A stretch of DNA of 64,000 nt from the human T2T-CHM13v2.0 reference genome, Homo sapiens. The notes under the pieces are model-generated. The model saw nothing but the letters and a program-made list of their open reading frames with translations, was not told where the DNA came from and did no database searches. The stretch lies in NCBI GenBank assembly GCA_009914755.4, contig CP086569.2:12000001-12064000 (forward strand), read 5' to 3'. Position numbers and translations under genes: made by a program. Below, piece by piece: positions 1 to 63,491 of the stretch (positions within the stretch are counted from its first letter, which is position 1; the number at the start of each line of letters is the position of its first letter).

Positions 1-250
1 AATCGACTGAAATATAATAGACTCGAAAGGAATGGTCTCGAGCGGAATTTATTTGAATAGAACGGAATCAAATGGAATACAATAGTATGGAATGGAATCG
101 AATGGAATGGAATCGAATGGAATGTAATCAAATGGAATGGAACGGAATTCAATATAATGGAGTAGAATGGAATGCATTGGAAAGGAGCAGAGTGGAATCG
201 AGTGGATTGGAATCGAGTGGAATGGAATCAAAGGGAACAAATCAAATTGA
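1..250 (+). repeat. Partial HOR copy (3' end of a unit truncated by the window start)
   Basis: Matches the last about 250 bp of downstream HOR copies, for example 1379-1628. Confidence 0.8.
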
Positions 251-1628
251 ATGGACTTGAATGGAATTGAGTCAAAAGGAATTGACTCGAAAGGAATGGA
301 CTGGAACAAAAAGGAATCAAATGGACAGGAATGGAATGGAATGGACTCGAATGGAATGGAGTCAAATGCAAACGCATCGAATGGAGTGGATTCAAATGGA
401 ATGCAATTGAATGGAATAGAAAGGAAGAGAATGGAATTGAGAGTAATGGAAAGATATCGATTGGAATGAAATGGAATGGAAAGGAAATGAATGGAAAGGA
501 AAGGACTCGAAAGAAATGGGTTGGAATGGAATGGTCTCCAATGGAATGGACTGGAGTGGAATGGAATCGAATGGAATGAAAAGAATGGAACGGAATGGAA
601 CGGAAAGGAATAGAATGTTATGGAATCCGATTGGACAGAATGGAATGGAATGCAGTTTCATGAAATGGAGTCGAAGAGAGTGGCATCAAAAGGAATGGAA
701 TGGAGTGGACTCAAAAGGAATGGACTCGAAAGGAATGGAGTCGAACAAAATTGAATCAAATGGATTGGAGTCGAACAGAATGGAATGGAATGGAATGAAC
801 TCGACTGGAGTAGAGAGGAATGAAAAGGAATAGAATGGAATGTAATCAAATGGATTGGAAGTGAATGGAATCAAAAATAATAGAAAGGAATAGAGTGTAA
901 AAGGATGATATTGAATTAAATGGAATGGAATGGAATTTAATGGAATGGAGTCGAAGGAATGGACAGGAATGTAATGGACTCCAATGGAATGGAATGGATC
1001 AAAATGGATTTGAACAGATTGGAATAGAACGGAATGGAATGCAATGAAATGGAATGGACTCGATCAGAACGGACTGGAGAGTAATGTACACAAATGGAAT
1101 GGAAACGAATGGAATGGAATGAAATGGAATGGAATGCAATGGAATTGAAAGGAACGGAATCAAATGGAATGGAATGGAATGGAATGGAATGGATTGGAAT
1201 AGAATGGATTCAAATAAAATAGAATCGATTGCAATGGTATTGAATGGAAGGGACTTGAATGGAATGGAAAGCAATGGAAGATATTGGAATTGAATGGCAT
1301 CGAATGAAATGGAATGGAACAGAATGGAACGGACCCGAATGGAATGGAATGGACTCAAATGTAATGGACTCGAATGGAATCGAATGAAATATAATAGACT
1401 CGAAAGGAATGGCCTCGAGCGGAATTTATTTGAATAGAATGGAATCAAATGGAATACAATAGTATGGAATGGAATCGAATGGAATGGAATCGAATGGAAT
1501 GTAATCAAATGGAATGGAACGGAATTCAATATAATGGAGTAGAATGGAATGCATTGGAAAGGAGCAGAGTGGAATCGAGTGGATTGGAATCGAGTGGAAT
1601 GGAATCAAAGGGAACGAAATCGAATTGA
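251..1628 (+). repeat. HOR copy 1, 1378 bp
   Basis: Anchor motif ATGGACTTGAATGGAATTGAG at 251 to the next anchor at 1629. EcoRI GAATTC at 1522. Five GGAAT units in the internal pure-pentamer run near 1165-1190. Confidence 0.8.
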
Positions 1629-3000
1629 ATGGACTTGAATGGAATTGAGTCGAAAGGAATTGACTCGAAAGGAATGGACTGGAACAAAAAGGAATCAAAT
1701 GGACAGGAATGGAATGGAATGGACTCGAATGGAATGGAGTCAAATGCAAACGCATCGAATGGAATGGATTCAAATGGAATGCAATTGAATGGAATAGAAA
1801 GGAAGAGAATGGAATTGAGAGTAATGGAAAGATATCGATTGGAATGAAATGGAATGGAAAGGAATTGAATGGAAAGGAATGGACTCGAAAGAAATGGGTT
1901 GGAATGGAATGGTCTCCAATGGAATGGACTGGAGTGGAATGGAATCGAATGGAATGAAAAGAATGGAACGGAATGGAACGGAAAGGAATAGAATGTTATG
2001 GAATCCGATTGGACAGAATGGAATGGAATGCAGTTTCATGAAATGGAGTCAAATAGAGTGGCATCAAAAGGAATGGAATGGAGTGGACTCAAGAGGAATG
2101 GACTCGAAAGGAATGGAGTCGAACCAAATTGAATCAAATGGATTGGAGTCGAACAGAATGGAATGGAATGGAATGAACTCGACTGGAGTAGAGAGGAATG
2201 AAAAGGAATAGAATGGAATGTAATCAAATGGATTGCAAGTGAATGGAATCAAAAATAATAGAAAGGAATGGAGTGTAAAGGGATGATATTGAATTAAATG
2301 GAATGGAATGGAATTTAATGGAATGGAGTCGAAGGAATGGACAGGAATGTAATGGACTCCAATGGAATGGAATGGATCAAAATGGATTTGAACAGATTGG
2401 AGTCGAACGGAATGGAATGCAATGAAATGGAATGGACTCGATCAGAATGGACTGGAGAGGAATGTAAACAAATGGAATGGAAACGAATGGAATGGAATGA
2501 AATGGAATGGAATGCAATGGAATTGAAAGGAACGGAATCAAATGGAATGGAATGGAATGGAATGGATTGGAATAGAATGGATTCAAATAAAATAGAATCG
2601 ATTGCAATGGTATTGAATGGAAGGGACTTGAATGGAATGGAAAGCAATGGAAGATATTGGAATCGAATGGCATCGAATGAAATGGAATGGAACGGAATGG
2701 AACGGACCCGAATAGAATGGAATGGACTCAAATGTAATGGACTCGAATGGAATCGACTGAAATATAATAGACTCGAAAGGAATGGTCTCGAGCGGAATTT
2801 ATTTGAATAGAACGGAATCAAATGGAATACAATAGTGTGGAATGGAATCGAATGGAATGGAATCGAATGGAATGTAATCAAATGGAATGGAACGGAATTC
2901 AATATAATGGAGTAGAATGGAATGCATTGGAAAGGAGCAGAGTGGAATCGAGTGGATTGGAATCGAGTGGAATGGAATCAAAGGGAACAAATCAAATTGA
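1629..3000 (+). repeat. HOR copy 2, 1372 bp
   Basis: Anchor-to-anchor. Four-unit pentamer run near 2541-2560. EcoRI at 2895. Confidence 0.8.
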
Positions 3001-4376
3001 ATGGACTTGAATGGAATTGAGTCGAAAGGAATTGACTCGAAAGGAATGGACTGGAACAAAAAGGAATCAAATGGACAGGAATGGAATGGAATGGACTCGA
3101 ATGGAATGGAGTCAAATGCAAACGCATCCAATGGAATGGATTCAAATGGAATGCAATTGAATGGAATAGAAAGGAAGAGAATGGAATTGAGAGTAATGGA
3201 AAGATATCGATTGGAATGAAATGGAATGGAAAGGAATTGAATGGAAAGGAAAGGACTCGAAAGAAATTGGTTGGAATGGAATGGTCTCCAATGGAATGGA
3301 CTGGAGTGGAATGGAATCGAATGGAATGAAAAGAATGGAACGGAATGGAACGGAAAGGAATAGAATGTTATGGAATCCGATTGGACAGAATGGAATGGAA
3401 TGCAGTTTCATGAAATGCAGTCGAATAGAGTGGCATCAAAAGGAATGGAATGAAATGGAGTGGACTCAAAAGGAATGGACTCGAAAGAATGGAGTCGAAC
3501 CAAATTGAATCAAATGGATTGGAGTCGAACAGAATGGAATGGAATGGAATGAACTCGACTGGATTAGAGAGGAATGAAAAGGAATAGAATGGAATGTAAT
3601 CAAATGGATTGGAAGTGAATGGAATCAAAAATAATAGAAAGGAATGGAGTGTAAAGGGATGATATTGAATTAAATGGAATGGAATGGAATTTAATGGAAT
3701 GGAGTCAAAGGAATGGACAGGAATGTAATGGACTCCAATGTAATGGAATGGAACAAAATGGATTTGAACAGATTGGAGTCGAACGGAATGGAATGCAATG
3801 AAATGGAATGGACTCGATCAGAACGGACTGGAGAGGAATGTAAACAAATGGAATGGAAACGAATGGAATGGAATGAAATGGAATGGAATGCAATGGAATT
3901 GAAAGGAACGGAATCAAATGGAATGGAATGGAATGGAATGGATTGGAATAGAATGGATTCAAATAAAATAGAATCGATTGCAATGGTATTGAATGGAAGG
4001 GACTTGAATGGAATGGAAAGCAATGGAAGATATTGGAATCGAATGGCATCGAATGAAATGGAATGGAACGGAATGGAACGGACCCGAATAGAATGGAATG
4101 GACTCAAATGTAATGGACTCGAATGGAATCGACTGAAATATAATAGACTCGAAAGGAATGGTCTCGAGCGGAATTTATTTGAATAGAACGGAATCAAATG
4201 GAATACAATAGTATGGAATGGAATCGAATGGAATGGAATCGAATGGAATGTAATCAAATGGAATGGAACGGAATTCAATATAATGGAGTAGAATGGAATG
4301 CATTGGAAAGGAGCAGAGTGGAATCGAGTGGATTGGAATCGAGTGGAATGGAATCAAAGGGAACAAATCAAATTGA
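3001..4376 (+). repeat. HOR copy 3, 1376 bp
   Basis: Anchor-to-anchor. EcoRI at 4271. Confidence 0.8.
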
Positions 4377-5754
4377 ATGGACTTGAATGGAATTGAGTCA
4401 AAAGGAATTGACTCGAAAGGAATGGACTGGAACAAAAAGGAATCAAATGGACAGGAATGGAATGGAATGGACTCGAATGGAATGGAGTCAAATGCAAACG
4501 CATCCAATGGAATGGATTCAAATGGAATGCAATTGAATGGAATAGAAAGGAAGAGAATGGAATTGAGAGTAATGGAAAGATATCGATTGGAATGAAATGG
4601 AATGGAAAGGAAATGAATGGAAAGGAAAGGACTCGAAAGAAATGGGTTGGAATGGAATGGTCTCCAATGGAATGGACTGGAGTGGAATGGAATCGAATGG
4701 AATGAAAAGAATGGAACGGAATGGAACGGAAAGGAATAGAATGTTATGGAATCCGATTGGACAGAATGGAATGGAATGCAGTTTCATGAAATGGAGTCGA
4801 ATAGAGAGGCATCAAAAGGAATGGAATGGAGTGGACTCAAAAGGAATGGACTCGAAAGGAATGGAGTCGAACAAAATTGAATCAAATGGATTGGAGTCGA
4901 ACAGAATGGAATGGAATGGAATGAACTCGACTGGAGTAGAGAGGAATGAAAAGGAATAGAATGGAATGTAATCAAATGGATTGGAAGTGAATGGAATCAA
5001 AAATAATAGAAAGGAATAGAGTGTAAAAGGATGATATTGAATTAAATGGAATGGAATGGAATTTAATGGAATGGAGTCGAAGGAATGGACAGGAATGTAA
5101 TGGACTCCAATGGAATGGAATGGAACAAAATGGATTTGAACAGATTGGAATAGAACGGAATGGAATGCAATGAAATGGAATGGACTCGATCAGAATGGAC
5201 TGGAGAGTAATGTACACAAATGGAATGGAAACGAATGGAATGGAATGAAGTGGAATGGAATGCAATGGAATTGAAAGGAACGGAATCAAATGGAATGGAA
5301 TGGAATGGAATGGAATGGATTGGAATAGAATGGATTCAAATAAAATAGAATCGATTGCAATGGTATTGAATGGAAGGGACTTGAATGGAATGGAAAGCAA
5401 TGGAAGATATTGGAATTGAATGGCATCGAATGAAATGGAATGGAACAGAATGGAACGGACCCGAATGGAATGGAATGGACTCAAATGTAATGGACTCGAA
5501 TGGAATCGAATGAAATATAATAGACTCGAAAGGAATGGCCTCGAGCGGAATTTATTTGAATAGAATGGAATCAAATGGAATACAATAGTATGGAATGGAA
5601 TCGAATGGAATGGAATCGAATGGAATGTAATCAAATGGAATGGAACGGAATTCAATATAATGGAGTAGAATGGAATGCATTGGAAAGGAGCAGAGTGGAA
5701 TCGAGTGGATTGGAATCGAGTGGAATGGAATCAAAGGGAACGAAATCGAATTGA
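4377..5754 (+). repeat. HOR copy 4, 1378 bp
   Basis: Anchor-to-anchor. Confidence 0.8.
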
Positions 5755-7132
5755 ATGGACTTGAATGGAATTGAGTCGAAAGGAATTGACTCGAAAGGAA
5801 TGGACTGGAACAAAAAGGAATCAAATGGACAGGAATGGAATGGAATGGACTCGAATGGAATGGAGTCAAATGCAAACGCATCGAATGGAATGGATTCAAA
5901 TGGAATGCAATTGAATGGAATAGAAAGGAAGAGAATGGAATTGAGAGTAATGGAAAGATATCGATTGGAATGAAATGGAATGGAAAGGAATTGAATGGAA
6001 AGGAATGGACTCGAAAGAAATGGGTTGGAATGGAATGGTCTCCAATGGAATGGACTGGAGTGGAATGGAATCGAATGGAATGAAAAGAATGGAACGGAAT
6101 GGAACGGAAAGGAATAGAATGTTATGGAATCCGATTGGACAGAATGGAATGGAATGCAGTTTCATGAAATGGAGTCAAATAGAGTGGCATCAAAAGGAAT
6201 GAAATGGAGTGGACTCAAGAGGAATGGACTCGAAAGGAATGGAGTCGAACCAAATTGAATCAAATGGATTGGAGTCGAACAGAATGGAATGGAATGGAAT
6301 GAACGCGACTGGAGTAGAGAGGAATGAAAAGGAATAGAATGGAATGTAATCAAATGGATTGCAAGTGAATGGAATCAAAAATAATAGAAAGGAATGGACT
6401 GTAAAGGGATGATATTGAATTAAATGGAATGGAATGGAATTTAATGGAATGGAGTCGAAGGAATGGACAGGAATGTAATGGACTCCAATGGAATAGAATG
6501 GATCAAAATGGATTTGAACAGATTGGAATCGAACGGAATGGAATGCAATGAAATGGAATGGACTCGATCAGAATGGACTGGAGAGTAATGTACACAAATG
6601 GAATGGAAACGAATGGAATGGAATGAAGTGGAATGGAATGCAATGGAATTGAAAGGAACGGAATCAAATGGAATGGAATGGAATGGAATGGAATGGATTG
6701 GAATAGAATGGATTCAAATAAAATAGAATCGATTGCAATGGTATTGAATGGAAGGGACTTGAATGGAATGGAAAGCAATGGAAGATATTGGAATTGAATG
6801 GCATCGAATGAAATGGAATGGAACAGAATGGAACGGACCCGAATGGAATGGAATGGACTCAAATGTAATGGACTCGAATGGAATCGAATGAAATATAATA
6901 GACTCGAAAGGAATGGCCTCGATTGGAATTTATTTGAATAGAATGGAATCAAATGGAATACAATAGTATGGAATGGAATCGAATGGAATGGAATCGAATG
7001 GAATGTAATCAAATGGAATGGAACGGAATTCAATATAATGGAGTAGAATGGAATGCATTGGAAAGGAGCAGAGTGGAATCGAGTGGATTGGAATCGAGTG
7101 GAATGGAATCAAAGGGAATGAAATCGAATTGA
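5755..7132 (+). repeat. HOR copy 5, 1378 bp (first unit of the duplicated six-HOR block)
   Basis: Anchor-to-anchor. Near-identical to 14007-15384. Confidence 0.8.
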
Positions 7133-8504
7133 ATGGACTTGAATGGAATTGAGTCGAAAGGAATTGACTCGAAAGGAATGGACTGGAACAAAAAGGAATC
7201 AAATGGACAGGAATGGAATGGAATGGACTCGAATGGAATGGAGTCAAATGCAAACGCATCGAATGGAATGGATTCAAATGGAATGCAATTGAATGGAATA
7301 GAAAGGAAGAGAATGGAATTGAGAGTAATGGAAAGATATCGATTGGAATGAAATGGAATGGAAAGGAATTGAATGGAAAGGAATGGACTCGAAAGAAATG
7401 GATTGGAATGGAATGGTCTCCAATGGAATGGACTGGAGTGGAATGGAATCGAATGGAAAGAAAAGAATGGAACGGAATGGAACGGAAAGGAATAGAATGT
7501 TATGGAATCCGATTGGAGAGAATGGAATGGAATGCAGTTTCATGAAATGGAGTCGAATAGAGTGGCATCAAAAGGAATGGAATGGAGTGGACTCAAAAGG
7601 AATAGACTCGAAAGGAATGGAGTCGAACAAAATTGAATCAAAAGGATTGGAGTCGAACAGAATGGAATGGAATGGAATGAACTCGACTGGAGTAGAGAGG
7701 AATGAAAAGGAATAGAATGGAATGTAATCAAATGGATTGCAAGTGAATGGAATCAAAAATAATAGAAAGGAATGGAGTGTAAAGGGATGATATTGAATTA
7801 AATGGAATGGAATGGAATTTAATGGAATGGAGTCGAAGGAATGGACAGGAATGTAATGGACTCCAATGGAATAGAATGGATCAAAATGGATTTGAACAGA
7901 TTGGAATCGAACGGAATGGAATGCAATGAAATGGAATGGACTCGATCAGAACGGACTGGAGAGGAATGTACACAAATGGAATGGAAACGAAAGGAATGGA
8001 ATGAAAGGGAATAGAATGCAATGTAATTGAAAGGAACGGAATCAAATGGAATGGAATGGAATGGAATGGATTGGAATAGAATGGATTCAAATAAATAGAA
8101 TCGATTGCAATGGTATTGAATGGAAGGGACTTGAATGGAATGGAAAGCAATGGAAGATATTGGAATCGAATGGCATCAAATGAAATGGAATGGAACGGAA
8201 TGGAACGGACCCGAATGGAATGGAATGGACTCAAATGTAATGGACTCGAATGGAATCAACTGAAATATAATAGACTCGAAAGGAATGGCCTCGAGCGGAA
8301 TTTATTTGAATAGAATGGAATCAAATGGAATACAATAGTATGGAATGGAATCAAATGGAATGGAATCGAATGGAATGTAATCAAATGGAATGGAACGGAA
8401 TTCAATATAATGGAGTAGAATGGAATGCATTGGAAAGGAGCAGAGTGGAATCGAGTGGATTGGAATCGAGTGGAATGGAATCAAAGGGAACGAAATCGAA
8501 TTGA
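7133..8504 (+). repeat. HOR copy 6, 1372 bp
   Basis: Anchor-to-anchor. Near-identical to 15385-16756. Confidence 0.8.
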
Positions 8505-9887
8505 ATGGACTTGAATGGAATTGAGTCGAAAGGAATTGACTCGAAAGGAATGGACTGGAACAAAAAGGAATCAAATGGACAGGAATGGAATGGAATGGAC
8601 TCGAATGGAATGTAGTCAAATGCAAACGCATCGAATGGAATGGATTCAAATGGAATGCAATTGAATGGAATAGAAAGGAAGAGAATGGAATTGAGAGTAA
8701 TGGAAAGATATCGATTGGAATGAAATGGAATGGAAAGGAATTGAATGGAAAGGAATGGACTCGAAAGAAATGGGTTGGAATGGAATGGTCTCCAATGGAA
8801 TGGACTGGAGTGGAATGGAATCGAATGGAATGAAAAGAATGGAACGGAATGGAACGGAAAGGAATAGAATGTTATGGAATCCGATTGGACAGAATGGAAT
8901 GGAATGCAGTTTCATGAAATGGAGTCAAATAGGGTGGCATCAAAAGGAATGGAATGGAGTGGACTCAAGAGGAATGGACTCGAAAGGAATGGAGTCGAAC
9001 CAAATTGAATCAAATGGATTGGAGTCGAACAGAATGGAATGGAATGGAATGAACTCGACTGGAGTAGAGAGGAATGAAAAGGAATAGAATGGAATGTAAT
9101 CAAATGGATTGCAAGTGAATGGAATCAAAAATAATAGAAAGGAATGGAGTGTAAAGGGATGATATTGAATTAAATGGAATGGAATGGAATTTAATGGAAT
9201 GGAGTCGAAGGAATGGACAGGAATGTAATGGACTCCAATGGAATGGAATGGATGAAAATGGATTAGAACAGATTGGAATAGAACGGAATGGAATGCCATG
9301 AAATGGAATGGACTCGATCAGAATGGACTGGAGAGGAATGTACACAAATGGAATGGAAACGTATGGAATGCAATGAAATGGAATGGAATGCAATGGAATT
9401 GAAAGGAACGGAATCAAATGGAATGGAATGGAATGGCATGGAATGGAATGGATTGGAATAGAATGGATTCAAATAAAATAGAATCGATTGCAATGGTATT
9501 GAATGGAAGGGACTTGAATGGAATGGAAAGCAATGGAAGATATTGGAATCGAATGGCATCGCATGAAATGGAATGGAACGGAATGGAACGGACCCGAATG
9601 GAATGGAATGGACTCAAATGTAATGGACTCGAATGGAATCGACTGAAATATAATAGACTCGAAAAGAATGGCCTCGAGCGGAATTTATTTGAATATAATA
9701 GAATGAAATGGAATACAATAGTATGGAATGGAATCGAATGGAATGGAATCGAATGGAATGTAATCAAATGGAATGGAACGGAATTCAATATAATGGAGTA
9801 GAATGGAATGCATTGGAAAGGAGCAGAGTGGAATCGAGTGTATTGGAATCGAGTGGAATGGAATCAAAGGGAACAAAATCAAATTGA
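8505..9887 (+). repeat. HOR copy 7, 1383 bp
   Basis: Anchor ATG at 8505. Six-unit pentamer run near 9421-9450. Near-identical to 16757-18139. Confidence 0.8.
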
Positions 9888-11260
9888 ATGGACTTGAATG
9901 GAATTGAGTCGAAAGGAATTGACTCGAAAGGAATGGACTGGAACAAAAAGGAATCAAATGGACAGGAATGGAATGGAATGGACTCGAACGGAATGGAGTC
10001 AAATGCAAACGCATCGAATGGAATGGATTCAAATGGAATGCAATTGAATGGAATAGAAAGGAAGAGAATGGAATTGAGAGTAATGGAAAGATATCGATTG
10101 GAATGAAATGGAATGGAAAGGAATTGAATGGAAAGGAATGGACTCGAAAGAAATGGGTTGGAATGGAATGGTCTCCAATGGAATGGACTGGAGTGGAATG
10201 GAATCGAATGGAATGAAAAGAATGGAACGGAATGGAACGGAAAGGAATAGAATGTTATGGAATCCGATTGGACAGAATGGAATGGAATGCAGTTTCATGA
10301 AATGGAGTCAAATAGAGTGGCAACAAAAGGAATGGAATGGAGTGGACTCAAGAGGAATGGACTCGGAAGGATTGGAGTCGAACCAAATTGAATCAAATGG
10401 ATTGGAGTCGAACAGAATGGAATGGAATGGAATGAACTCGACTGGAGTAGAGAGGAATGAAAAGGAATAGAATGGAATGTAATCAAATGGATTACAAGTG
10501 AATGGAATCAAAAATAATAGAAAGGAATGGAGTGTAAAGGGATGATATTGAATTAAATGGAATGGAATGGAATTTAATGGAATGGAGTCGAAGGAATGGA
10601 CAGGAATGTAATGGACTCCAATGGAATGGAATGGATGAAAATGGATTAGAACAGATTGGAATAGAACGGAATGGAATGCCATGAAATGGAATGGACTCGA
10701 TCAGAACGGACTGGAGAGGAATGTACACAAATGGAATGGAAACGAATGGAATGCAATGAAATGGAATGCAATGCAATGGAATTGAAAGGAACGGAATCAA
10801 ATGGAATGGAATGGAATGGAATGGATTGGAATAGAATGGATTCAAATAAAATAGAATCGATTGCAATGGTATTGAATGGAAGGGACTTGAATGGAATGGA
10901 AAGCAATGGAAGATATTGGAATCGAATGGCATTGAATGAAATGGAATGGAACGGAATGGAACGGACCCGAATGGTATGGAATGGACTCAAATGTAATGGA
11001 CTCGAATGGAATCGACTGAAATATAATAGACTCGAAAGGAATGGCCTCGAGCGGAATTTATTTGAATAGAATGGAATCAAATGGAATACAATAGTATAGA
11101 ATGGAATCAAATGGAATGGAATCGAATGGAATGTAATCAAATGGAATGGAACGGAATTCAATATAATGGAGTAGAATGGAATGCATTGGAAAGGAGCAGA
11201 GTGGAATCGAGTGGATTGGAATCGAGTGGAATGGAATCAAAGGGAACGAAATCGAATTGA
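9888..11260 (+). repeat. HOR copy 8, 1373 bp
   Basis: Anchor-to-anchor. Equals 18140-19512. Confidence 0.8.
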
Positions 11261-51109: not shown

Positions 51110-52487
51110 ATGGACTTGAATGGAATTGAGTCGAAAGGAATTGACTCGAAAGGAATGGACTGGAACAAAAAGGAATCAAATGGACAGGAATGGAATGGAA
51201 TGGACTCGAATGGAATGGAGTCAAATGCAAACGCATCGAATGGAATGGATTCAAATGGAATGCAATTGAATGGAATAGAAAGGAAGAGAATGGAATTGAG
51301 AGTAATGGAAAGATATCGATTGGAATGAAATGGAATGGAAAGGAATTGAATGGAAAGGAATGGACTCGAAAGAAATGGATTGGAATGGAATGGTCTCCAA
51401 TGGAATGGACTGGAGTGGAATGCAATCGAATGGAAAGAAAAGAATGGAACGGAATGGAACGGAAAGGAATAGAATGTTATGGAATCCGATTGAACAGAAT
51501 GGAATGGAATGCAGTTTCATGAAATGGAGTCGAATATAGTGGCATCAAAAGGAATGGAATGGAATGGACTCAAAAGGAATGGACTCGAAAGGAATGGAGT
51601 CGAACCAAATTGAATCAAATGGATTGGAGTCGAACAGAATGGAATGGAATGGAATGAACTCGACTGGAGTAGAGAGGAATGAAAAGGAATAGAATGGAAT
51701 GTAATCAAATGGATTGCAAGTGAATGGAATCAAAAATAATAGAAAGGAATGGAGTGTAAAGGGATGATATTGAATTAAATGGAATGGAATGGAATTTAAT
51801 GGAATGGAGTCGAAGGAATGGACAGGAATGTAATGGACTCCAATGGAATGGAATGGATCAAAATGGATTTGAACAGATTGGAATCGAACGGAATGGAATG
51901 CAATGAAATGGAATGGACTCGATCAGAACGGACTGGAGAGGAATGTACACAAATGGAATGGAAACGAAAGGAATGGAATGAAATGGAATGGAATGCAATG
52001 GAATTGAAAGGAACGGAATCAAATGGAATGGAATGGAATGGAATGGAATGGATTGGAATAGAATGGATTCAAATAAAATAGAATCGATTGCAATGGTATT
52101 GAATGGAAGGGACTTGAATGGAATGGAAAGCAATGGAAGATATTGGAATCGAATGGCATCGAATGAAATGGAATGGAACGGAATGGAACGGACCCGAATG
52201 GAATGGAATGGACTCAAATGTAATGGATTCGAATGGAATCGACTGAAATATAATAGACTCGAAAGGAATGGCCTCGAGCGGAATTTATTTGAATAGAATG
52301 GAATCAAATGGAATACAATCGTATAGAATGGAATCGAATGGAATGGAATCGAATGGAATGTAATCAAATGGAATGGAACGGAATTCAATATAATGGAGTA
52401 GAATGGAATGCATTGGAAAGGAGCAGAGTGGAATCGAGTGGATTGGAATCGAGTGGAATGGAATCAAAGGGAACGAAATCGAATTGA
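51110..52487 (+). repeat. HOR copy 38, 1378 bp
   Basis: Anchor-to-anchor. Confidence 0.8.
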
Positions 52488-53865
52488 ATGGACTTGAATG
52501 GAATTGAGTCGAAAGGAATTGACTCGAAAGGAATGGACTGGAACAAAAAGGAATCAAATGGACAGGAATGGAATGGAATGGACTCGAATGGAATGGAGTC
52601 AAATGCAAACGCATCGAATGGAATGGATTCAAATGGAATGCAATTGAATGGAATAGAAAGGAAGAGAATGGAATTGAGAGTAATGGAAAGATATCGATTG
52701 GAATGAAATGGAATGGAAAGGAATTGAATGGAAAGGAATGGACTCGAAAGAAATGGATTGGAATGGAATGGTCTCCAATGGAATGGACTGGAGTGGAATG
52801 CAATCGAATGGAAAGAAAAGAATGGAACGGAATGGAATGGAAAGGAATAGAATGTTATGGATTCCGATTGAACAGAATGGAATGGAATGCAGTTTCATGA
52901 AATGGAGTCGAATAGAGTGGCATGAAAAGGAATGGAATGGAGTGGACTCAAAAGGAATGGACTCGAAAGGAATGGAGTCGAACCAAATTGAATCAAATGG
53001 ATTGGAGTCGAACAGAATGGAATGGAATGGAATGAACTCGACTGGAGTAGAGAGGAATGAAAAGGAATAGAATGGAATGTAATCAAATGGATTGCAAGTG
53101 AATGGAATCAAAAATAATAGAAAGGAATGGAGTGTAAAGGGATGATATTGAATTAAATGGAATGGAATGGAATTTAATGGAATGGAGTCGAAGGAATGGA
53201 CAGGAATGTAATGGACTCCAATGGAATGGAATGGATCAAAATGGATTTGAACAGATTGGAATCGAACGGAATGGAATGCAATGAAATGGAATGGACTCGA
53301 TCAGAACGGACTGGAGAGGAATGTACACAAATGGAATGGAAACGAAAGGAATGGAATGAAATGGAATGGAATGCAATGGAATTGAAAGGAACGGAATCAA
53401 ATGGAATGGAATGGAATGGAATGGAATGGATTGGAATAGAATGGATTCAAATAAAATAGAATCGATTGCAATGGTATTGAATGGAAGGGACTTGAATGGA
53501 ATGGAAAGCAATGGAAGATATAGGAATCGAATGGCATCGAATGAAATGGAATGGAAAGGAATGGAACGGACCCGAATGGAATGGAATGGACTCAAATATA
53601 ATGGACTCTAATGGAATCGACTGAAGTATAATAGACTCGAAAGGAATGTCCTGAAGCGGAATTTATTTGAATAGAATGGAATCAAATGGAATACAATCGT
53701 ATGGAATGGAATCGAATGGAATGGAATCGAATGGAATGTAATCAAATGGAATGGAACGGAATTCAATATAATGGAGTAGAATGGAATGCATTGGAAAGGA
53801 GCAGAGTGGAATCGAGTGGATTGGAATCGAGTGGAATGGAATCAAAGGGAACGAAATCGAATTGA
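52488..53865 (+). repeat. HOR copy 39, 1378 bp
   Basis: Anchor-to-anchor. Confidence 0.8.
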
Positions 53866-55243
53866 ATGGATTTGAATGGAATTGAGTCGAAAGGAATTGA
53901 CTCGAAAGGAATGGACTGGAACAAAAAGGAATCAAATGGACAGGAATGGAATGGAATGGACTCGAATGGAATGGAGTCAAATGCAAACGCATCGAATGGA
54001 ATGGATTCAAATGGAATACAATTGAATGGAATAGAAAGGAAGAGAATGGAATTGAGAGTAATGGAAAGATATCGATTGGAATGAAAGGGAATGGAAAGGA
54101 ATTGAATGGAAAGGAATGGACTCGAAAGAAATGGATTGGAATGGAATGGTCTCCAATGGAATGGACTGGAGTGGAATGGAATCGAATGGAAAGAAAAGAA
54201 TGGAACGGAATGGAACGGAAAGGAATAGAATGTTATGGAATCCGATTGGACAGAATGCAATGGAATGCAGTTTCATGAAATGGAGTCGAATAGAGTGGCA
54301 TCAAAAGGAATGGAATGGAGTGGACTCAAAAGGAATGGACTCGAAAGGAATGGAGTCGAACCAAATTGAATCAAATGGATTGGAGTCGAACAGAATGGAA
54401 TGGAATGGAATGAACTCGACTGGAGTAGAGAGGAATGAAAAGGAATAGAATGGAATGTAATCAAATGGATTGTAAGTGAATGGAATCAAAAATAATAGAA
54501 AGGAATGGAGTGTAAAGGGATGATATTGAATTAAATGGAATGGAATGGAATTTAATGGAATGGAGTAGAAGGAATGGACAGGAATGTAATGGACTCCAAT
54601 GGAACGGAATGGATCAAAATGTATTTGAACAGATTGGAATCGAACGGAATGGAATGCAATGAAATGGAATGGACTCGATCAGAACGGACTGGAGAGGAAT
54701 GTACACAAATGGAATGGAAACGAAAGGAATGGAATGAAATGGAATGGAATGCAATGGAATTGAAAGGAACGGAATCAAATGGAATGGAATGGAATGGAAT
54801 GGAATGGATTGGAATAGAATGGATTCAAATAAAATAGAATCGATTGCAATGGTATTGAATGGAAGGGACTTGAATGGAATGGAAAGCAATGGAAGATATT
54901 GGAATCGAATGGCATCGAATGAAATGGAATGGAACGGAATGGAACGGACCCGAATGGAATGGAATGGACTCAAATATAATGGACTCTAATGGAATCGACT
55001 GAAGTATAATAGACTCGAAAGGAATGTCCTGAAGCGGAATTTATTTGAATAGAATGGAATCAAATGGAATACAATCGTATGGAATGGAATCGAATGGAAT
55101 GGAATCGAATGGAATGTAATCAAATGGAATGGAACGGAATTCAATATAATGGAGTAGAATGGAATGCATTGGAAAGGAGCAGAGTGGAATCGAGTGGATT
55201 GGAATCGAGTGGAATGGAATCAAAGGGAACGAAATCGAATTGA
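53866..55243 (+). repeat. HOR copy 40, 1378 bp (type-B haplotype)
   Basis: Anchor-to-anchor. Type-B variants near 54078 and 54247. Confidence 0.8.
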
Positions 55244-56616
55244 ATGGATTTGAATGGAATTGAGTCGAAAGGAATTGACTCGAAAGGAATGGACTGGAAC
55301 AAAAAGGAATCAAATGGACAGGAATGGAATGGAAGGGACTCGAATGGAATGGAGTCAAATGCAAACGCATCGAATGGAATGGATTCAAATGGAATGCAAT
55401 TGAATGGAATAGAAAGGAAGAGAATGGAATTGAGAGTAATGGAAAGATATCGATTGGAATGAAAGGGAATGGAAAGGAATTGAATGGAAAGGAATGGACT
55501 TGAAAGAAATGGATTGGAATGGAATGGTCTCCAATGGAATGGACTGGAGTGGAATGGAATCGAATGGAAAGAAAAGAATGGAACGGAATGGAACGGAAAG
55601 GAATAGAATGTTATGGAATCCGATTGGACAGAATGCAATGGAATGCAGTTTCATGAAATGGAGTCGAATAGAGTGGCATCAAAAGGAATGGAATGGAGTG
55701 GACTCAAAAGGAATGGACTCGAAAGGAATGGAGTCGAACCAAATTGAATCAAATGGATTGGAGTCGAACAGAATGGAATGGAATGGAATGAACTCGACTG
55801 GAGTAGAGAGGAATGAAAAGGAATAGAATGGAATGTAATCAAATGGATTGCAAGTGAATGGAATCAAAAATAATAGAAAGGAATGGAGTGTAAAGGGATG
55901 ATATTGAATTAAATGGAATGGAATGGAATTTAATGGAATGGAGTCGAAGGAATGGACAGGAATGTAATGGACTCCAATGGAATGGAATGGATCAAAATGG
56001 ATTTGAACAGATTGGAATCGAACGGAATGGAATGCAATGAAATGGAATGGACTCGATCAGAACGGACTGGAGAGGAATGTACACAAATGGAATGGAAACG
56101 AAAGGAATGGAATGAAATGGAATGGAATGCAATGGAATTGAAAGGAACGGAATCAAATGGAATGGAATGGAATGGAATGGATTGGAATAGAATGGATTCA
56201 AATAAAATAGAATCGATTGCAATGGTATTGAATGGAAGGGACTTGAATGGAATGGAAAGCAATGGAAGATATTGGAATCGAATGGCATCGAATGAAATGG
56301 AATGGAACGGAATGGAACGGACCCGAATGGAATGGAATGGACTCAAATGTAATGGACTCGAATGGAATCGACTGAAATATAATAGACTCGAAAGGAATGG
56401 CCTCGAGCGGAATTTATTTGAATAGAATGGAATAAAATGGAGTACAATCGTATGGAATGGAATCGATTGGAATGGAATCGAATGGAATGTAATCAAATGG
56501 AATGGAACGGAATTCAATATAATGGAGTAGAATGGAATGCATTGGAAAGGAGCAGAGTGGAATCGAGTGGATTGGAATCGAGTGGAATGGAATCAAAGGG
56601 AACGAAATCGAATTGA
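55244..56616 (+). repeat. HOR copy 41, 1373 bp (type-B haplotype)
   Basis: Anchor-to-anchor. Type-B variants near 55455 and 55632. Confidence 0.8.
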
Positions 56617-57989
56617 ATGGACTTGAATGGAATTGAGTCGAAAGGAATTGACTCGAAAGGAATGGACTGGAACAAAAAGGAATCAAATGGACAGGAATGG
56701 AATGGAATGGACTCGAATGGAATGGAGTCAAATGCAAACGCATCGAATGGAATGGATTCAAATGGAATGCAATTGAATGGAATAGAAAGGAAGAGAATGG
56801 AATTGAGAGTAATGGAAAGATATCGATTGGAATGAAATGGAATGGAAAGGAATTGAATGGAAAGGAATGGACTCGAAAGAAATGGATTGGAATGGAATGG
56901 TCTCCAATGGAATGGACTGGAGTGGAATGCAATCGAATGGAAAGAAAAGAATGGAACGGAATGGAACGGAAAGGAATAGAATGTTATGGAATCCGATTGG
57001 ACAGAATGGAATGGAATGCAGTTTCATGAAATGGAGTCGAATAGAGTGGCATCAAAAGGAATGGAATGGAGTGGACTCAAAAGGAATGGACTCGAAAGGA
57101 ATGGAGTCGAACCAAATTGAATCAAATGGATTGGAGTCGAACAGAATGGAATGGAATGGAATGAACTCGACTGGAGTAGAGAGGAATGAAAAGGAATAGA
57201 ATGGAATGTAATCAAATGGATTGCAAGTGAATGGAATCAAAAATAATAGAAAGGAATGGAGTGTAAAGGGATGATATTGAATTAAATGGAATGGAATGGA
57301 ATTTAATGGAATGGAGTCGAAGGAATGGACAGGAATGTAATGGACTCCAATGGAATGGAATGGATCAAAATGGATTTGAACAGATTGGAATCGAACGGAA
57401 TGGAATGCAATGAAATGGAATGGACTCGATCAGAACGGACTGGAGAGGAATGTACACAAATGGAATGGAAACGAAAGGAATGGAATGAAATGGAATGGAA
57501 TGCAATGGAATTGAAAGGAACGGAATCAAATGGAATGGAATGGAATGGAATGGATTGGAATAGAATGGATTCAAATAAAATAGAATCGATTGCAATGGTA
57601 TTGAATGGAAGGGACTTGAATGGAATGGAAAGCAATGGAAGATATTGGAATCGAATGGCATCGAATGAAATGGAATGGAACGGAATGGAACGGACCCGAA
57701 TGGAATGGAATGCACTCAAATGTAATGGACTCGAATGGAATCGACTGAAATATAATAGACTCGAAAGGAATGGCCTCGAGCGGAATTTATTTGAATAGAA
57801 TGGAATCAAATGGAATTCAATGGTATAGAATGCAATCGAATGGAATGGAAACGAACGGAATGTAATCAAATGGAATGGAACGGAATTCAATATAATGGAG
57901 TAGAATGGAATGCATTGGAAAGGAGCAGAGTGGAATCGAGTGGATTGGAATCGAGTGGAATGGAATCAAAGGGAACGAAATCGAATTGA
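56617..57989 (+). repeat. HOR copy 42, 1373 bp
   Basis: Anchor-to-anchor. Confidence 0.8.
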
Positions 57990-59367
57990 ATGGACTTGAG
58001 TGGAATTGAGTCGAAAGGAATTGACTCGAAAGGAATGGACTGGAACAAAAAGGAATCAAATGGACAGGAATGGAATGCAATGGACTCGAATGGAATGGAG
58101 TCAAATGCAAACGCATCGAATGGAATGGATTCAAATGGAATGCAATTGAATGGAATAGAAAGGAAGAGAATGGAATTGAGAGTAATGGAAAGATATCGAT
58201 TGGATTGAAATGGAATGGAAAGGAATTGAATGGAAAGGAATGGACTCGAAAGAAATGGATTGGAATGGAATGGTCTCCAATGGAATGGACTGGAGTGGAA
58301 TGCAATCGAATGGAAAGAAAAGAATGGAACGGAATGGAACGGAAAGGAATAGAATGTTATGGAATCCGATTGAACAGAATGGAATGGAATGCAGTTTCAT
58401 GAAATGGAGTCGAATATAGTGGCATCAAAAGGAATGGAATGGAGTGGACTCAAAAGGAATGGACTCGAAAGGAATGGAGTCGAACCAAATTGAATCAAAT
58501 GGATTGGAGTCGAACAGAATGGAATGGAATGGAATGAACTCGACTGGAGTAGAGAGGAATGAAAAGGAATAGAATGGAATGTAATCAAATGGATTGCAAG
58601 TGAATGGAATCAAAAATAATAGAAAGGAATGGAGTGTAAAGGGATGATATTGAATTAAATGGAATGGAATGGAATTTAATGGAATGGAGTCGAAGGAATG
58701 GACAGGAATGTAATGGACTCCAATGGAATGGAATGGATCAAAATGGATTTGAACAGATTGGAATCGAACGGAATGGAATGCAATGAAATGGAATGGACTC
58801 GATCAGAACGGACTGGAGAGGAATGTACACAAATGGAATGGAAACGAAAGGAATGGAATGAAATGGAATGGAATGCAATGGAATTGAAAGGAACGGAATC
58901 AAATGGAATGGAATGGAATGGAATGGAATGGATTGGAATAGAATGGATTCAAATAAAATAGAATCGATTGCAATGGTATTGAATGGAAGGGACTTGAATG
59001 GAATGGAAAGCAATGGAAGATATTGGAATCGAATGGCATCGAATGAAATGGAATGGAACGGAATGGAACGGACCCGAATGGAATGGAATGGACTCAAATG
59101 TAATGGATTCGAATGGAATCGACTGAAATATAATAGACTCGAAAGGAATGGCCTCGAGCGGAATTTATTTGAATAGAATGGAATCAAATGGAATACAATA
59201 GTATAGAATGGAATCGAATGGAATGGAATCGAATGGAATGTAATCAAATGGAATGGAACGGAATTCAATATAATGGAGTAGAATGGAATGCATTGGAAAG
59301 GAGCAGAGTGGAATCGAGTGGATTGGAATCGAGTGGAATGGAATCAAAGGGAACGAAATCGAATTGA
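57990..59367 (+). repeat. HOR copy 43, 1378 bp
   Basis: Anchor-to-anchor. Confidence 0.8.
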
Positions 59368-60740
59368 ATGGACTTGAATGGAATTGAGTCGAAAGGAATT
59401 GACTCGAAAGGAATGGACTGGAACAAAAAGGAATCAAATGGACAGGAATGGAATGGAATGGACTCGAATGGAATGGAGTCAAATGCAAACGCATCGAATG
59501 GAATGGATTCAAATGGAATGCAATTGAATGGAATAGAAAGGAAGAGAATGGAATTGAGAGTAATGGAAAGATATCGATTGGAATGAAATGGAATGGAAAG
59601 GAATTGAATGGAAAGGAATGGACTCGAAAGAAATGGATTGGAATGGAATGGTCTCCAATGGAATGGACTGGAGTGGAATGCAATCGAATGGAAAGAAAAG
59701 AATGGAACGGAATGGAATGGAAAGGAATAGAATGTTATGGAATCCGATTGAACAGAATGGAATGGAATGCAGTTTCATGAAATGGAGTCGAATATAGTGG
59801 CATCAAAAGGAATGGAATGGAGTGGACTCAAAAGGAATGGACTCGAAAGGAATGGAGTCGAACCAAATTGAATCAAATGGATTGGAGTCGAACAGAATGG
59901 AATGGAATGGAATGAACTCGACTGGAGTAGAGAGGAATGAAAAGGAATAGAATGGAATGTAATCAAATGGATTGCAAGTGAATGGAATCAAAAATAATAG
60001 AAAGGAATGGACTGTAAAGGGATGATATTGAATTAAATGGAATGGAATGGAATTTAATGGAATGGAGTCGAAGGAATGGACAGGAATGTAATGGACTCCA
60101 ATGGAATGGAATGGATCAAAATGGATTTGAACAGATTGGAATCGAACGGAATGGAATGTAATGAAATGGAATGGACTCGATCAGAACGGACTGGAGAGGA
60201 ATGTACACAAATGGAATGGAAACGAAAGGAATGGAATGAAATGGAATGGAATGCAATGGAATTGAAAGGAACGGAATCAAATGGAATGGAATGGAATGGA
60301 ATGGATTGGAATAGAATGGATTCAAATAAAATAGAATCGATTGCAATGGTATTGAATGGAAGGGACTTGAATGGAATGGAAAGCAATGGAAGATATTGGA
60401 ATCGAATGGCATCGAATGAAATGGAATGGAACGGAATGGAACGGACCCGAATGGAATGGAATGGACTCAAATGTAATGGACTCGAATGGAATCGACTGAA
60501 ATATAATAGACTCGAAAGGAATGGCCTCGAGCGGAATTTATTTGAATAGAATGGAATAAAATGGAGTACAATCGTATGGAATGGAATCGATTGGAATGGA
60601 ATCGAATGGAATGTAATCAAATGGAATGGAACGGAATTCAATATAATGGAGTAGAATGGAATGCATTGGAAAGGAGCAGAGTGGAATCGAGTGGATTGGA
60701 ATCGAGTGGAATGGAATCAAAGGGAACGAAATCGAATTGA
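59368..60740 (+). repeat. HOR copy 44, 1373 bp
   Basis: Anchor-to-anchor. Confidence 0.8.
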
Positions 60741-62113
60741 ATGGACTTGAATGGAATTGAGTCGAAAGGAATTGACTCGAAAGGAATGGACTGGAACAAA
60801 AAGGAATCAAATGGACAGGAATGGAATGGAATGGACTCGAATGGAATGGTGTCAAATGCAAACGCATCGAATGGAATGGATTCAAATGGAATGCAATTGA
60901 ATGGAACAGAAAGGAAGAGAATGGAATTGAGAGTAATGGAAAGATATCGTTTGGAATGAAATGGAATGGAAAGGAATTGAATGGAAAGGAATGGACTCGA
61001 AAGAAATGGATTGGAATGGAATGGTCTCCAATGGAATGGACTGGAGTGGAATGCAATCGAATGGAAAGAAAAGAATGGAACGGAATGGAACGGAAAGGAA
61101 TAGAATGTTATGGAATCCGATTGGACAGAATGGAATGGAATGCAGTTTCATGAAATGGAGTCGAATAGAGTGGCATCAAAAGGAATGGAATGGAGTGGAC
61201 TCAAAAGGAATGGACTCGAAAGGAATGGAGTCGAACCAAATTGAATCAAATGGATTGGAGTCGAACAGAATGGAATGGAATGGAATGAACTCGACTGGAG
61301 TAGAGAGGAATGAAAAGGAATAGAATGGAATGTAATCAAATGGATTGCAAGTGAATGGAATCAAAAATAATAGAAAGGAATGGAGTGTAAAGGGATGATA
61401 TTGAATTAAATGGAATGGAATGGAATTTAATGGAATGGAGTCGAAGGAATGGACAGGAATGTAATGGACTCCAATGGAATGGAATGGATCAAAATGGATT
61501 TGAACAGATTGGAATCGAACGGAATGGAATGCAATGAAATGGAATGGACTCGATCAGAACGGACTGGAGAGGAATGTACACAAATGGAATGGAAACGAAA
61601 GGAATGGAAAGAAATGGAATGGAATGCAATGGAATTGAAAGGAACGGAATCAAATGGAATGGAATGGAATGGAATGGATTGGAATAGAATGGATTCAAAT
61701 AAAATAGAATCGATTGCAATGGTATTGAATGGAAGGGACTTGAATGGAATGGAAAGCAATGGAAGATATTGGAATCGAATGGCATCGAATGAAATGGAAT
61801 GGAACGGAATGGAACGGACCCGAATGGAATGGAATGGACTCAAATGTAATGGACTCGAATGGAATCGACTGAAATATAATAGACTCGAAAGGAATGGCCT
61901 CGAGCGGAATTTATTTGAATAGAATGGAATCAAATGGAATACAATGGTATAGAATGGAATCGAATGGAATGGAATCGAATGGAATGTAATCAAATGGAAT
62001 GGAACGGAATTCAATATAATGGAGTAGAATGGAATGCATTGGAAAGGAGCAGAGTGGAATCGAGTGGATTGGAATCGAGTGGAATGGAATCAAAGGGAAC
62101 GAAATCGAATTGA
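60741..62113 (+). repeat. HOR copy 45, 1373 bp
   Basis: Anchor-to-anchor. Confidence 0.8.
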
Positions 62114-63491
62114 ATGGACTTGAATGGAATTGAGTCGAAAGGAATTGACTCGAAAGGAATGGACTGGAACAAAAAGGAATCAAATGGACAGGAATGGAAT
62201 GGAATGGACTCGAATGGAATGGAGTCAAATGCAAACGCATCGAATGGAATGGATTCAAATGGAATGCAATTGAATGGAATAGAAAGGAAGAGAATGGAAT
62301 TGAGAGTAATGGAAAGATATCGATTGGAATGAAATGGAATGGAAAGGAATTGAATGGAAAGGAATGGACTCGAAAGAAATGGATTGGAATGGAATGGTCT
62401 CCAATGGAATGGACTGGAGTGGAATGCAATCGAATGGAAAGAAAAGAATGGAACGGAATGGAACGGAAAGGAATAGAATGTTATGGAATCCGATTGAACA
62501 GAATGGAATGGAATGCAGTTTCATGAAATGGAGTCGAATATAGTGGCATCAAAAGGAATGGAATGGAATGGACTCAAAAGGAATGGACTCGAAAGGAATG
62601 GAGTCGAACCAAATTGAATCAAATGGATTGGAGTCGAACAGAATGGAATGGAATGGAATGAACTCGACTGGAGTAGAGAGGAATGAAAAGGAATAGAATG
62701 GAATGTAATCAAATGGATTGCAAGTGAATGGAATCAAAAATAATAGAAAGGAATGGAGTGTAAAGGGATGATATTGAATTAAATGGAATGGAATGGAATT
62801 TAATGGAATGGAGTCGAAGGAATGGACAGGAATGTAATGGACTCCAATGGAATGGAATGGATCAAAATGGATTTGAACAGATTGGAATCGAACGGAATGG
62901 AATGCAATGAAATGGAATGGACTCGATCAGAACGGACTGGAGAGGAATGTACACAAATGGAATGGAAACGAAAGGAATGGAATGAAATGGAATGGAATGC
63001 AATGGAATTGAAAGGAACGGAATCAAATGGAATGGAATGGAATGGAATGGAATGGATTGGAATAGAATGGATTCAAATAAAATAGAATCGATTGCAATGG
63101 TATTGAATGGAAGGGACTTGAATGGAATGGAAAGCAATGGAAGATATTGGAATCGAATGGCATCGAATGAAATGGAATGGAACGGAATGGAACGGACCCG
63201 AATGGAATGGAATGGACTCAAATGTAATGGATTCGAATGGAATCGACTGAAATATAATAGACTCGAAAGGAATGGCCTCGAGCGGAATTTATTTGAATAG
63301 AATGGAATCAAATGGAATACAATAGTATAGAATGGAATCGAATGGAATGGAATCGAATGGAATGTAATCAAATGGAATGGAACGGAATTCAATATAATGG
63401 AGTAGAATGGAATGCATTGGAAAGGAGCAGAGTGGAATCGAGTGGATTGGAATCGAGTGGAATGGAATCAAAGGGAACGAAATCGAATTGA
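62114..63491 (+). repeat. HOR copy 46, 1378 bp
   Basis: Anchor-to-anchor. Confidence 0.8.

What the first reader, a model, noticed from the sequence alone, without database searches (positions are those of the whole stretch)
251..63491. HOR of about 1.37 kb with quantised length classes set by one slippage-prone pure (GGAAT)n run
Anchor-to-anchor HOR lengths fall into 1368, 1373, 1378 and 1383 bp, plus a few off by 1-2 bp from single-base indels such as the 1-bp deletion near 25113. In every copy I checked, the class tracks the number of perfect GGAAT units in a single internal run about 910 bp after the anchor. There are 3 units in copy 17 (near 23166), 4 in copy 2 (near 2541), 5 in copy 1 (near 1165) and 6 in copies 7 and 13 (near 9421 and 17673). 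This is a microsatellite-like replication-slippage hotspot embedded in an otherwise diverged HOR.
Basis: seen in the sequence. Interest (0 to 1): 0.55.

Follow-up and report, generated by a model that had tools for sequence, protein, structure and literature searches.

The report
Human Y satellite III repeat-length variation
The window is an ordinary stretch of human satellite III DNA (the Y-chromosome subfamily HSat3A3) built from a 1.37-kb repeat, and its 5-bp length classes do come from one short pure GGAAT run that changed length a few times and was then copied along with its repeat.

Summary
The whole window is one head-to-tail array of a 1373-bp unit, with 46 full copies at 98.3% mean identity.

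- **Where the indels are.** A full alignment finds only seven indel sites. All 5-bp differences except one lie in the GGAAT run. The run has 3 units in 1 copy, 4 units in 29, 5 units in 14 and 6 units in 2.
- **Why this run.** It is the longest perfect period-5 tract in the unit (26 bp). The next longest tracts (20, 18, 18, 17, 16 and 15 bp) never change length.
The "6-unit" run in copy 7 and the 5-unit run in copy 27 each carry a substitution. Copy 3 has a separate 5-bp insertion at 3449-3453.
- **Main caveat.** The classes follow clades. On a neighbour-joining tree, 5 changes explain all 17 non-modal copies, and 3 is the floor if alleles moved by conversion. The alleles then spread by array duplication, for example an 8252-bp six-copy duplicate with 2 mismatches.
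- **Identity.** The sequence is human HSat3 subfamily A3, which is Y-specific, shown by an exact diagnostic 24-mer present 38 times. It is better called a nested tandem repeat than an HOR, because 1373 is not a multiple of 5.

This is known biology and of low interest.

The parts
1..64000 (+). Uninterrupted head-to-tail array of a ~1373-bp (GGAAT)n-derived unit: 46 full copies plus partial copies at both ends. Human satellite III, subfamily HSat3A3.
   Evidence: TRF periods 5/10/15 across 23-63986. K-mer spacing and autocorrelation peak at 1373. 47 exact anchors. The HSat3A3-specific 24-mer is found 38 times.
251..1628 (+).
1163..1193 (+). Variable perfect period-5 tract in copy 1, (GGAAT)5, 31 bp. 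The homologous tract starts at 2541 in copy 2, 3917 in copy 3, and so on to 63026 in copy 46.
2541..2566 (+). Modal state of the tract, (GGAAT)4, 26 bp. It is present in 29 of 46 copies and is the longest perfect period-5 tract of the consensus unit.
23171..23191 (+). Contracted allele (GGAAT)3 in copy 17, the only 1368-bp copy.
17669..17704 (+). Expanded allele (GGAAT)6 in copy 13 (1383 bp), pure.
9417..9452 (+). Six-unit allele in copy 7 (1383 bp), interrupted by GGCAT (C at 9437). It is the duplicate of copy 13.
36894..36924 (+). Five-unit allele in copy 27, interrupted by CGAAT (C at 36902).
3449..3453 (+). The only 5-bp indel outside the run: insertion AATGA in copy 3, inside a 13-bp period-5 tract. 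It is accompanied by a 1-bp deletion at 3487.
5648..22151 (+). Two tandem 8252-bp segments (copies 5-10 and 11-16) that differ at 2 positions (6213 and 9437). They carry the same series of length classes: 1378, 1372, 1383, 1373, 1373, 1373.
25113..25113 (+). Site of a 1-bp deletion in copy 19, with a second at 25435. Other 1-bp deletions are at 239, 2989 and 4365 (copies 1, 3, 4) and at 8093 and 16345 (copies 6, 12, in an A-run).

Best explanation
**What it is.** The window is part of a human satellite III array of subfamily HSat3A3, the Y-chromosome-specific subfamily. It is organised as a 1373-bp nested tandem repeat whose copies are about 98% identical.

**How the length classes arose.**
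- Each unit contains one perfect pentanucleotide tract long enough to misalign by whole units: (GGAAT)4, or 26 bp of exact period 5.
- A small number of strand-slippage-type events occurred there. There were three to five in the history of these 46 copies: mostly +1 unit, one further step to 6 units, and one −1.
- These events created alleles of 3, 5 and 6 units.
- The alleles were then multiplied together with their flanking SNV haplotypes by the normal turnover of the array, meaning tandem duplication of blocks of one to six units by unequal exchange. That gives the quantised copy lengths 1368, 1373, 1378 and 1383.
- A few unrelated 1-bp deletions and one other pentamer insertion give the off-class lengths.

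**Shown.** The position of all indels, the clade structure of the alleles, the block duplication and the subfamily marker.

**Inferred.** That the misalignment happened during replication, and the chromosomal location.
For: 1. **Array structure.** Mean pairwise identity is 98.3%.
2. **Indel catalogue.** The alignment of all 46 copies has gaps at only seven places. The run at columns 1025-1039 has 3, 4, 5 and 6 units in 1, 29, 14 and 2 copies.
3. **Fit to length.** Copy length equals 1373 + 5×(units − 4) in 41 of 46 copies. Every exception is explained by a listed indel.
4. **Tract length.** The run is the longest perfect period-5 tract, at 26 bp. The 30 other tracts of 10-20 bp include none that vary, apart from the single copy-3 insertion.
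5. **Concentration.** P ranges from 6e-6 to 8e-3.
6. **Clade structure.**
   - Fitch parsimony gives 5 changes with ancestral state 4, against a mean of 14.9 with shuffled labels.
   - The 5-unit copies form three flanking-haplotype groups: 1, 4, 5, 11; then 27, 29, 30, 34, 36, 39, 40; then 38, 43, 46.
   - No local haplotype carries two lengths.
   - Copy 32 (4 units) differs from copy 46 (5 units) at only 4 sites, which marks a recent change.
7. **Block duplication.** Segments 5648-13899 and 13900-22151 differ at 2 of 8252 positions.
8. **Identity.**
   - The commonest HSat3A3-specific 24-mer of Altemose et al. 2014 (PMC4022460, Table 1) is present 38 times, once per unit. None of the other 13 subfamily markers matches exactly.
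   - HSat3A3 is reported as Y-specific.
   - Y pericentromeric HSat3 and DYZ17 arrays are described.
9. **Independent copies.** Units 99-100% identical to the consensus, with 1373-bp spacing and 4 units as the usual state, occur in 21 metagenome contigs. These include a human skin metagenome, so they are human carry-over.
Against: - The count of independent events is uncertain. Ordinary nucleotide columns show up to 6 parsimony changes on the same tree. The copies are therefore mosaics, and some of the 5 run-length changes could be one allele moved by conversion. The floor is 3.
- With 3 to 5 events, the length-mutation rate of the tract is only about equal to the summed substitution rate of its 20-26 bases (0.21 events per bp). 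It is a hotspot for indels rather than an unusually fast locus.
- Nothing here distinguishes polymerase slippage from out-of-register exchange.
- The Y-chromosome assignment rests on one published diagnostic 24-mer. The rest of the marker list was not available, and the published unit length of HSat3A3/DYZ17 could not be found.
Confidence: 0.85

Rival explanations
1. The 5-bp changes arise from out-of-register unequal sister-chromatid exchange or gene conversion, with the two partners misaligned by one pentamer inside the run. They do not arise from polymerase slippage during replication.
For: The array clearly evolves by exchange and duplication: there is an 8252-bp block duplicate. The copies are mosaics with homoplasic columns. 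In the largest 5-unit group the 3' flank is shared while the 5' flank differs, as expected if exchanges occur near the run.
Against: Exchange between 98%-identical 1.37-kb units has hundreds of bases of correct register on either side, so a 5-bp misregister is not favoured. The dependence on tract purity and length (only the 26-bp tract varies) is the classical signature of slippage. No flanking breakpoint coincides with the run in the 6-unit or 3-unit alleles.
Confidence: 0.12
2. The site is not a recurrent hotspot. Each non-modal allele (3, 5 and 6 units) arose once, and the 5-unit allele reached three haplotype backgrounds by gene conversion or recombination between units.
For: Nucleotide columns show up to 6 apparent changes on the same tree, so homoplasy from mosaicism is common. 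The minimum number of events is 3.
Against: The three 5-unit groups differ on both flanks within 300 bp of the run. Group 38/43/46 is nearest to a 4-unit copy, copy 32 at 4-8 differences, and not to other 5-unit copies. Even with 3 of 4 events in this tract the concentration stays significant (P 1e-3 to 8e-3).
Confidence: 0.2
3. The length classes are sequencing or assembly artefacts in a low-complexity run.
For: Satellite arrays are hard to assemble. The near-identical 8252-bp duplicate could in principle be a false duplication.
Against: Each length class is tied to specific flanking SNVs. The same length series recurs in the duplicated block. Errors of long-read consensus are mainly 1-bp homopolymer errors, which is established knowledge and was not tested here. 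A 5-unit version and the modal 4-unit version also occur in independent metagenome assemblies.
Confidence: 0.03
4. Run length is under selection, for example as a binding site or a non-B DNA element, and the classes reflect function.
For: None from this window. (GGAAT)n tracts are known to form unusual structures and to be bound by proteins (general knowledge).
Against: The variation is small, stepwise and clade-bound. Two alleles carry interruptions. Nothing distinguishes the tract from neutral microsatellite behaviour.
Confidence: 0.02

Closest known systems
Human satellite III subfamily HSat3A3 (Altemose et al. 2014, PMC4022460). It is Y-specific and lies in the pericentromeric Yq HSat3/DYZ17 region described in the T2T-Y and 43-Y-assembly papers.
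   Same: (CATTC)n/(GGAAT)n-derived sequence. It holds an exact match, once per unit, to the commonest subfamily-specific 24-mer. Near-identical units are found as human carry-over in metagenomes.
   Different: Nothing found. The 2014 paper lists no clone or unit length for this subfamily, so the 1373-bp period could not be compared with a published figure.
pTRS-47 / HSat3A4, the 1366-bp satellite III unit on chromosomes 14 and 22 (Choo et al. 1990, as cited in PMC4022460)
   Same: HSat3A-type satellite with a complete repeat unit of almost the same length, 1366 against 1373 bp.
   Different: The HSat3A4 marker 24-mer is absent; the best match has 3 mismatches. The chromosomes differ.
DYZ1 / HSat3A6, the ~3.6-kb nested tandem repeat of Yq12
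   Same: Y-linked, derived from the same pentamer, organised as a kb-scale nested tandem repeat with units mostly over 98% identical, and evolving by tandem block duplication.
   Different: Different unit length and subfamily. The HSat3A6 marker is absent.
Microsatellite (short tandem repeat) slippage with a minimum-length threshold (general knowledge, for example Levinson and Gutman 1987; not checked in the library)
   Same: Changes by whole units, mostly single steps, restricted to the longest uninterrupted tract, with shorter tracts stable.
   Different: The locus is multi-copy. Most of the observed variation comes from amplification of a few alleles, not from repeated mutation.
Alpha-satellite HOR structural variants
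   Same: Discrete length classes of a higher-order unit within one array, with variants clustered locally.
   Different: In alpha satellite, classes differ by whole ~171-bp monomers gained or lost by unequal exchange. Here they differ by 5 bp at one internal tract, and the unit has no discrete monomers (1373 mod 5 = 3).

Membership tests
Human satellite III (HSat3) | Sequence derived from a tandem (CATTC)n/(GGAAT)n pentamer | tested here: met
   TRF periods of 5, 10 and 15 span the whole window. Exact GGAAT covers 31% of the consensus, and AATGG/GGAAT are by far the commonest pentamers.
HSat3 subfamily A3 | Presence of subfamily-specific 24-mers (Altemose et al. 2014) | tested here: met
   CTTTACACTCCATTCCTTTCTATT is found 38 times as reverse complement. 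The 13 other subfamilies' top markers give 0 exact matches. Only the top marker per subfamily could be tested, because the stored marker file is cut off.
HSat3 subfamily A3 | Location on the human Y chromosome | not testable with these tools
   No human genome is in the searchable collections. The location is taken from PMC4022460 and the T2T centromere preprint.
Nested tandem repeat (NTR, Altemose et al. 2021/2022) | A kb-scale unit repeated head to tail, itself made of a diverged short repeat without discrete equal-length monomers | tested here: met
   The period is 1373. Within the consensus the only sub-periods are multiples of 5, with 15 the best. 1373 mod 5 = 3.
Higher-order repeat in the strict sense | Unit composed of an integer number of monomers of similar length | tested here: not met
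   1373 is not a multiple of 5, and no intermediate monomer period was found.
Slippage-prone microsatellite | Length changes by whole repeat units, confined to an uninterrupted tract | tested here: met
   The alleles have 3, 4, 5 and 6 units. This is the longest pure tract, and shorter tracts are invariant.
Slippage-prone microsatellite | Recurrent independent mutation at the same tract | tested here: inconclusive
   There are 5 changes by parsimony. Mosaicism of the copies allows as few as 3.
Slippage-prone microsatellite | Mutation arises during replication, without exchange of flanks | not testable with these tools
   This needs pedigree or single-molecule data.

The most novel reading that the evidence does not exclude
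The run could serve as a built-in multi-allelic marker. It would allow the expansion history of the Y-linked HSat3A3 array to be traced. Calibrated on the non-recombining Y phylogeny, it would also give a direct estimate of the length threshold and per-generation rate of pentanucleotide slippage inside constitutive heterochromatin. In this window, tracts of 20 bp or less are stable and the 26-bp tract is mobile.
Probability: 0.3. Interest if true: 0.25.

Novelty: already known. Interest (0 to 1): 0.12.

Why it matters
It matters little beyond bookkeeping. The window shows, in a clean small example, how two ordinary processes combine in a satellite array. The first is rare unit-slippage in the only pure tract long enough to slip. 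The second is frequent block duplication. Together they give sharply quantised repeat-unit lengths.

For people who decompose HSat2/3 arrays there are two practical points:
- Length classes of a nested tandem repeat can be read as haplotype markers of unit lineages.
- Counting variant copies greatly overstates the number of mutations: here 17 copies trace to 3-5 events.

Tried and rejected
- **Bacterial and archaeal genomes.** A scan of genome contigs with the run's flanks found nothing.
- **Published unit length.** I looked for a published unit length for HSat3A3/DYZ17 in the T2T centromere, T2T-Y, 43-Y, population-Y and great-ape satellite papers, and in Altemose 2014 Table S1. None states it. 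The Altemose 2022 review that holds the consensus sequences is not in the library.
- **More subfamily markers.** The stored supplementary 24-mer list is truncated after subfamily 2A1.
- **Ancient dimer.** I tested whether the 1373-bp unit is an ancient dimer, as suggested by k-mer spacings of 719 and 654. Circular autocorrelation of the consensus shows no such period. Rejected.
- **BLAST against metagenome contigs.** The consensus gives many off-register about-70% hits, as expected for a pentamer satellite. Only the hits at 97% or above, and the roughly 80-83% in-register hits, were used.
- **Protein, RNA-family and structure tools.** These were not used, because the sequence is non-coding satellite.
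Full report
**What is in the window**

The window is entirely (GGAAT)n-derived satellite. Tandem Repeats Finder reports periods of 5, 10 and 15 over 23-63986.

A k-mer spacing spectrum has its main peak at 1373 (18623 k-mers). Smaller peaks follow at 1378 (10539), 1372, 1383 and 1368. Base-by-base autocorrelation is highest at lag 1373, at 0.77.

An exact 28-mer that contains the unit's single EcoRI site occurs 47 times with regular spacing, which defines 46 complete copies. 63492. The stated interval therefore holds exactly 46 copies.

**Checking the observation**

I aligned all 46 copies with MAFFT and listed every gapped column. There are only seven indel sites:

| Site (alignment column) | Change | Copies | Window position |
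|---|---|---|---|
| 95 | 1-bp deletion | 1, 3, 4 | 239, 2989, 4365 |
| 544 | 1-bp deletion | 19 | 25435 |
| 556-560 | 5-bp insertion AATGA | 3 | 3449-3453 |
| 594 | 1-bp deletion | 3 | 3487 |
| 1025-1039 | GGAAT run, variable | see below | see below |
| 1083 | 1-bp deletion in an A-run | 6, 12 | 8093, 16345 |

The GGAAT run has these states:

| Units | Number of copies | Which copies |
|---|---|---|
| 3 | 1 | 17 |
| 4 | 29 | the remaining 29 copies |
| 5 | 14 | 1, 4, 5, 11, 27, 29, 30, 34, 36, 38, 39, 40, 43, 46 |
| 6 | 2 | 7, 13 |

The five exceptions are fully explained by the other indels. R² is 0.964.
- Two details are wrong. The six units of copy 7 include GGCAT (C at 9437), and the five units of copy 27 include CGAAT (C at 36902), so neither run is pure.
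- One 5-bp indel lies elsewhere, in copy 3.

**Why this run**

In the ungapped 1373-bp consensus there are 31 exact period-5 tracts of 10 bp or more.
- The variable one is the longest, at 26 bp (AATGG AATGG AATGG AATGG AATGG A).
- The next ones measure 20, 18, 18, 17, 16 and 15 bp, and none shows any length change in 46 copies.
- The single other insertion sits in a 13-bp tract.

If 5-bp indels fell on tracts in proportion to their length, or to the number of slippage registers, the observed concentration has P between 6e-6 and 8e-3. The range covers both event counts (5 of 6, or 3 of 4).

**How many events**

This is where the interpretation needs tempering.

- **Similarity of the copies.** The copies are 98.3% identical on average, with 127 parsimony-informative columns.
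- **Block duplication.** Copies 5-10 and 11-16 are identical at all informative sites. Directly compared, 5648-13899 and 13900-22151 (8252 bp each) differ at two positions, one of which is the GGCAT interruption in copy 7. The two 1383-bp copies are thus one allele duplicated, and so are copies 5 and 11.
- **Local haplotypes.** Within 300 bp on either side of the run, every non-modal length sits on its own SNV haplotype.
  - The 5-unit copies form three groups: 1, 4, 5, 11; then 27, 29, 30, 34, 36, 39, 40; then 38, 43, 46.
  - The 6-unit pair and the 3-unit copy each have their own background.
  - No haplotype carries two lengths.
- **Parsimony.** On a neighbour-joining tree built without the run columns, Fitch parsimony needs 5 changes, with 4 units ancestral. 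Shuffled labels need 14.9 on average and never fewer than 11.
- **Evidence of a recent change.** Group 38/43/46 is closest to the 4-unit copy 32, at 4-8 differences.
- **A lower bound.** Ordinary nucleotide columns show up to 6 apparent changes on the same tree. The copies are therefore mosaics, and the true number of run-length events could be as low as 3.
- **Rate.** The same tree gives 289 substitution events over 1368 bp, or 0.21 per bp. The tract's length-mutation rate is thus about 15-25 times that of a single base, roughly equal to the summed substitution rate of the tract itself. It is the dominant site for pentamer indels, but it is not an exceptionally fast locus.

**What the sequence is**

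Table 1 of Altemose et al. 2014 gives the commonest subfamily-specific 24-mer for each of the 14 HSat2/3 subfamilies (PMC4022460).
- The HSat3A3 marker occurs 38 times in the window as reverse complement, once per unit.
- None of the other 13 markers matches exactly.

HSat3A3 is described as Y-specific. The Y pericentromere carries an HSat3 array and the DYZ17 array next to DYZ3.

A scan of metagenome contigs with the run's flanks returned 21 contigs, one titled as a human skin metagenome.
- Several are 99-100% identical to the consensus.
- Five show 1373-bp spacing.
- Four units is the usual state; one contig has 5 units and one has 2.
- These are human carry-over. They confirm that the unit and its modal state exist in other samples.

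The T2T authors call such HSat2/3 units nested tandem repeats rather than HORs. That fits here, because 1373 is not a multiple of 5 and the consensus has no intermediate monomer period.

A unit of nearly the same length, pTRS-47 at 1366 bp in subfamily HSat3A4 on chromosomes 14 and 22, is on record. Its marker is absent from the window.

**Mechanism**

The most likely account has three steps:
1. A few slippage-type misalignments by whole pentamers occurred in the only tract long and pure enough to misalign.
2. The resulting alleles were amplified by tandem duplication of blocks of units.
3. Occasional 1-bp deletions added noise to the lengths.

Out-of-register exchange within the run would give the same products and cannot be excluded. 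I rate it lower because the dependence on tract purity is the signature of slippage. Artefact is unlikely, because lengths are tied to flanking SNVs and recur in the duplicated block. Nothing suggests function.

**A longer time scale**

In contig L010, a more diverged relative of the unit differs from the consensus by many 5-bp (and some 10- and 25-bp) indels at many sites. Over longer times, pentamer-quantised indels are therefore spread throughout HSat3. The concentration in one tract is a property of the recent history of this homogeneous array.

**Verdict**

The object is a known human satellite behaving as expected, so novelty is nil and interest is low.

Noticed in passing
window 5648-13899 and 13900-22151: Two adjacent 8252-bp blocks of six units each differ at only 2 positions (6213 and 9437). 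This is a very recent tandem block duplication, or possibly an assembly duplication.
   Followed up: yes
window 29010-30382 and 31756-33128: Copies 22 and 24 are identical outside the run columns, and both have 4 units. Copies 21 and 23, which sit beside them, differ at 8 sites. The pattern suggests conversion or duplication at the scale of a single unit.
   Followed up: partly
window 145-22151 compared with 22152-63384: Copies 1-16 are more divergent from one another and form separate deep branches. Copies 17-46 form a more homogeneous set with interleaved variant types. The array seems to have two zones of different age.
   Followed up: partly
alignment columns 888, 1328 and 1333 of the unit (for example window about 1032, 1472 and 1477 in copy 1): Three columns need 6 parsimony changes each on the unit tree. 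Column 888 is in a CpG (ATCGA). This points to recurrent mutation or to mosaicism by gene conversion between units.
   Followed up: no
window, once per unit (for example 145-150): There is a single EcoRI site (GAATTC) per unit, 48 sites in 46.6 units. The array would therefore give a ~1.37-kb EcoRI ladder. There are about 32 HinfI and 25 TaqI sites per unit.
   Followed up: no
L001-L021 (metagenome contigs, for example L005 human skin metagenome): Human Y-linked satellite III units, up to 100% identical to the window consensus, are present in public metagenome assemblies as unfiltered human carry-over. No match was found in the bacterial and archaeal genome collection.
   Followed up: partly
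L010, reverse strand about 960-2350; also L001, L002, L003, L007, L013, L018: Next to units that are 99-100% identical, some contigs hold a relative of the unit that is only about 80-83% identical. It differs by many 5-bp indels at many sites and has a 2-unit version of the run. This may be an older layer or the edge of the array.
   Followed up: partly
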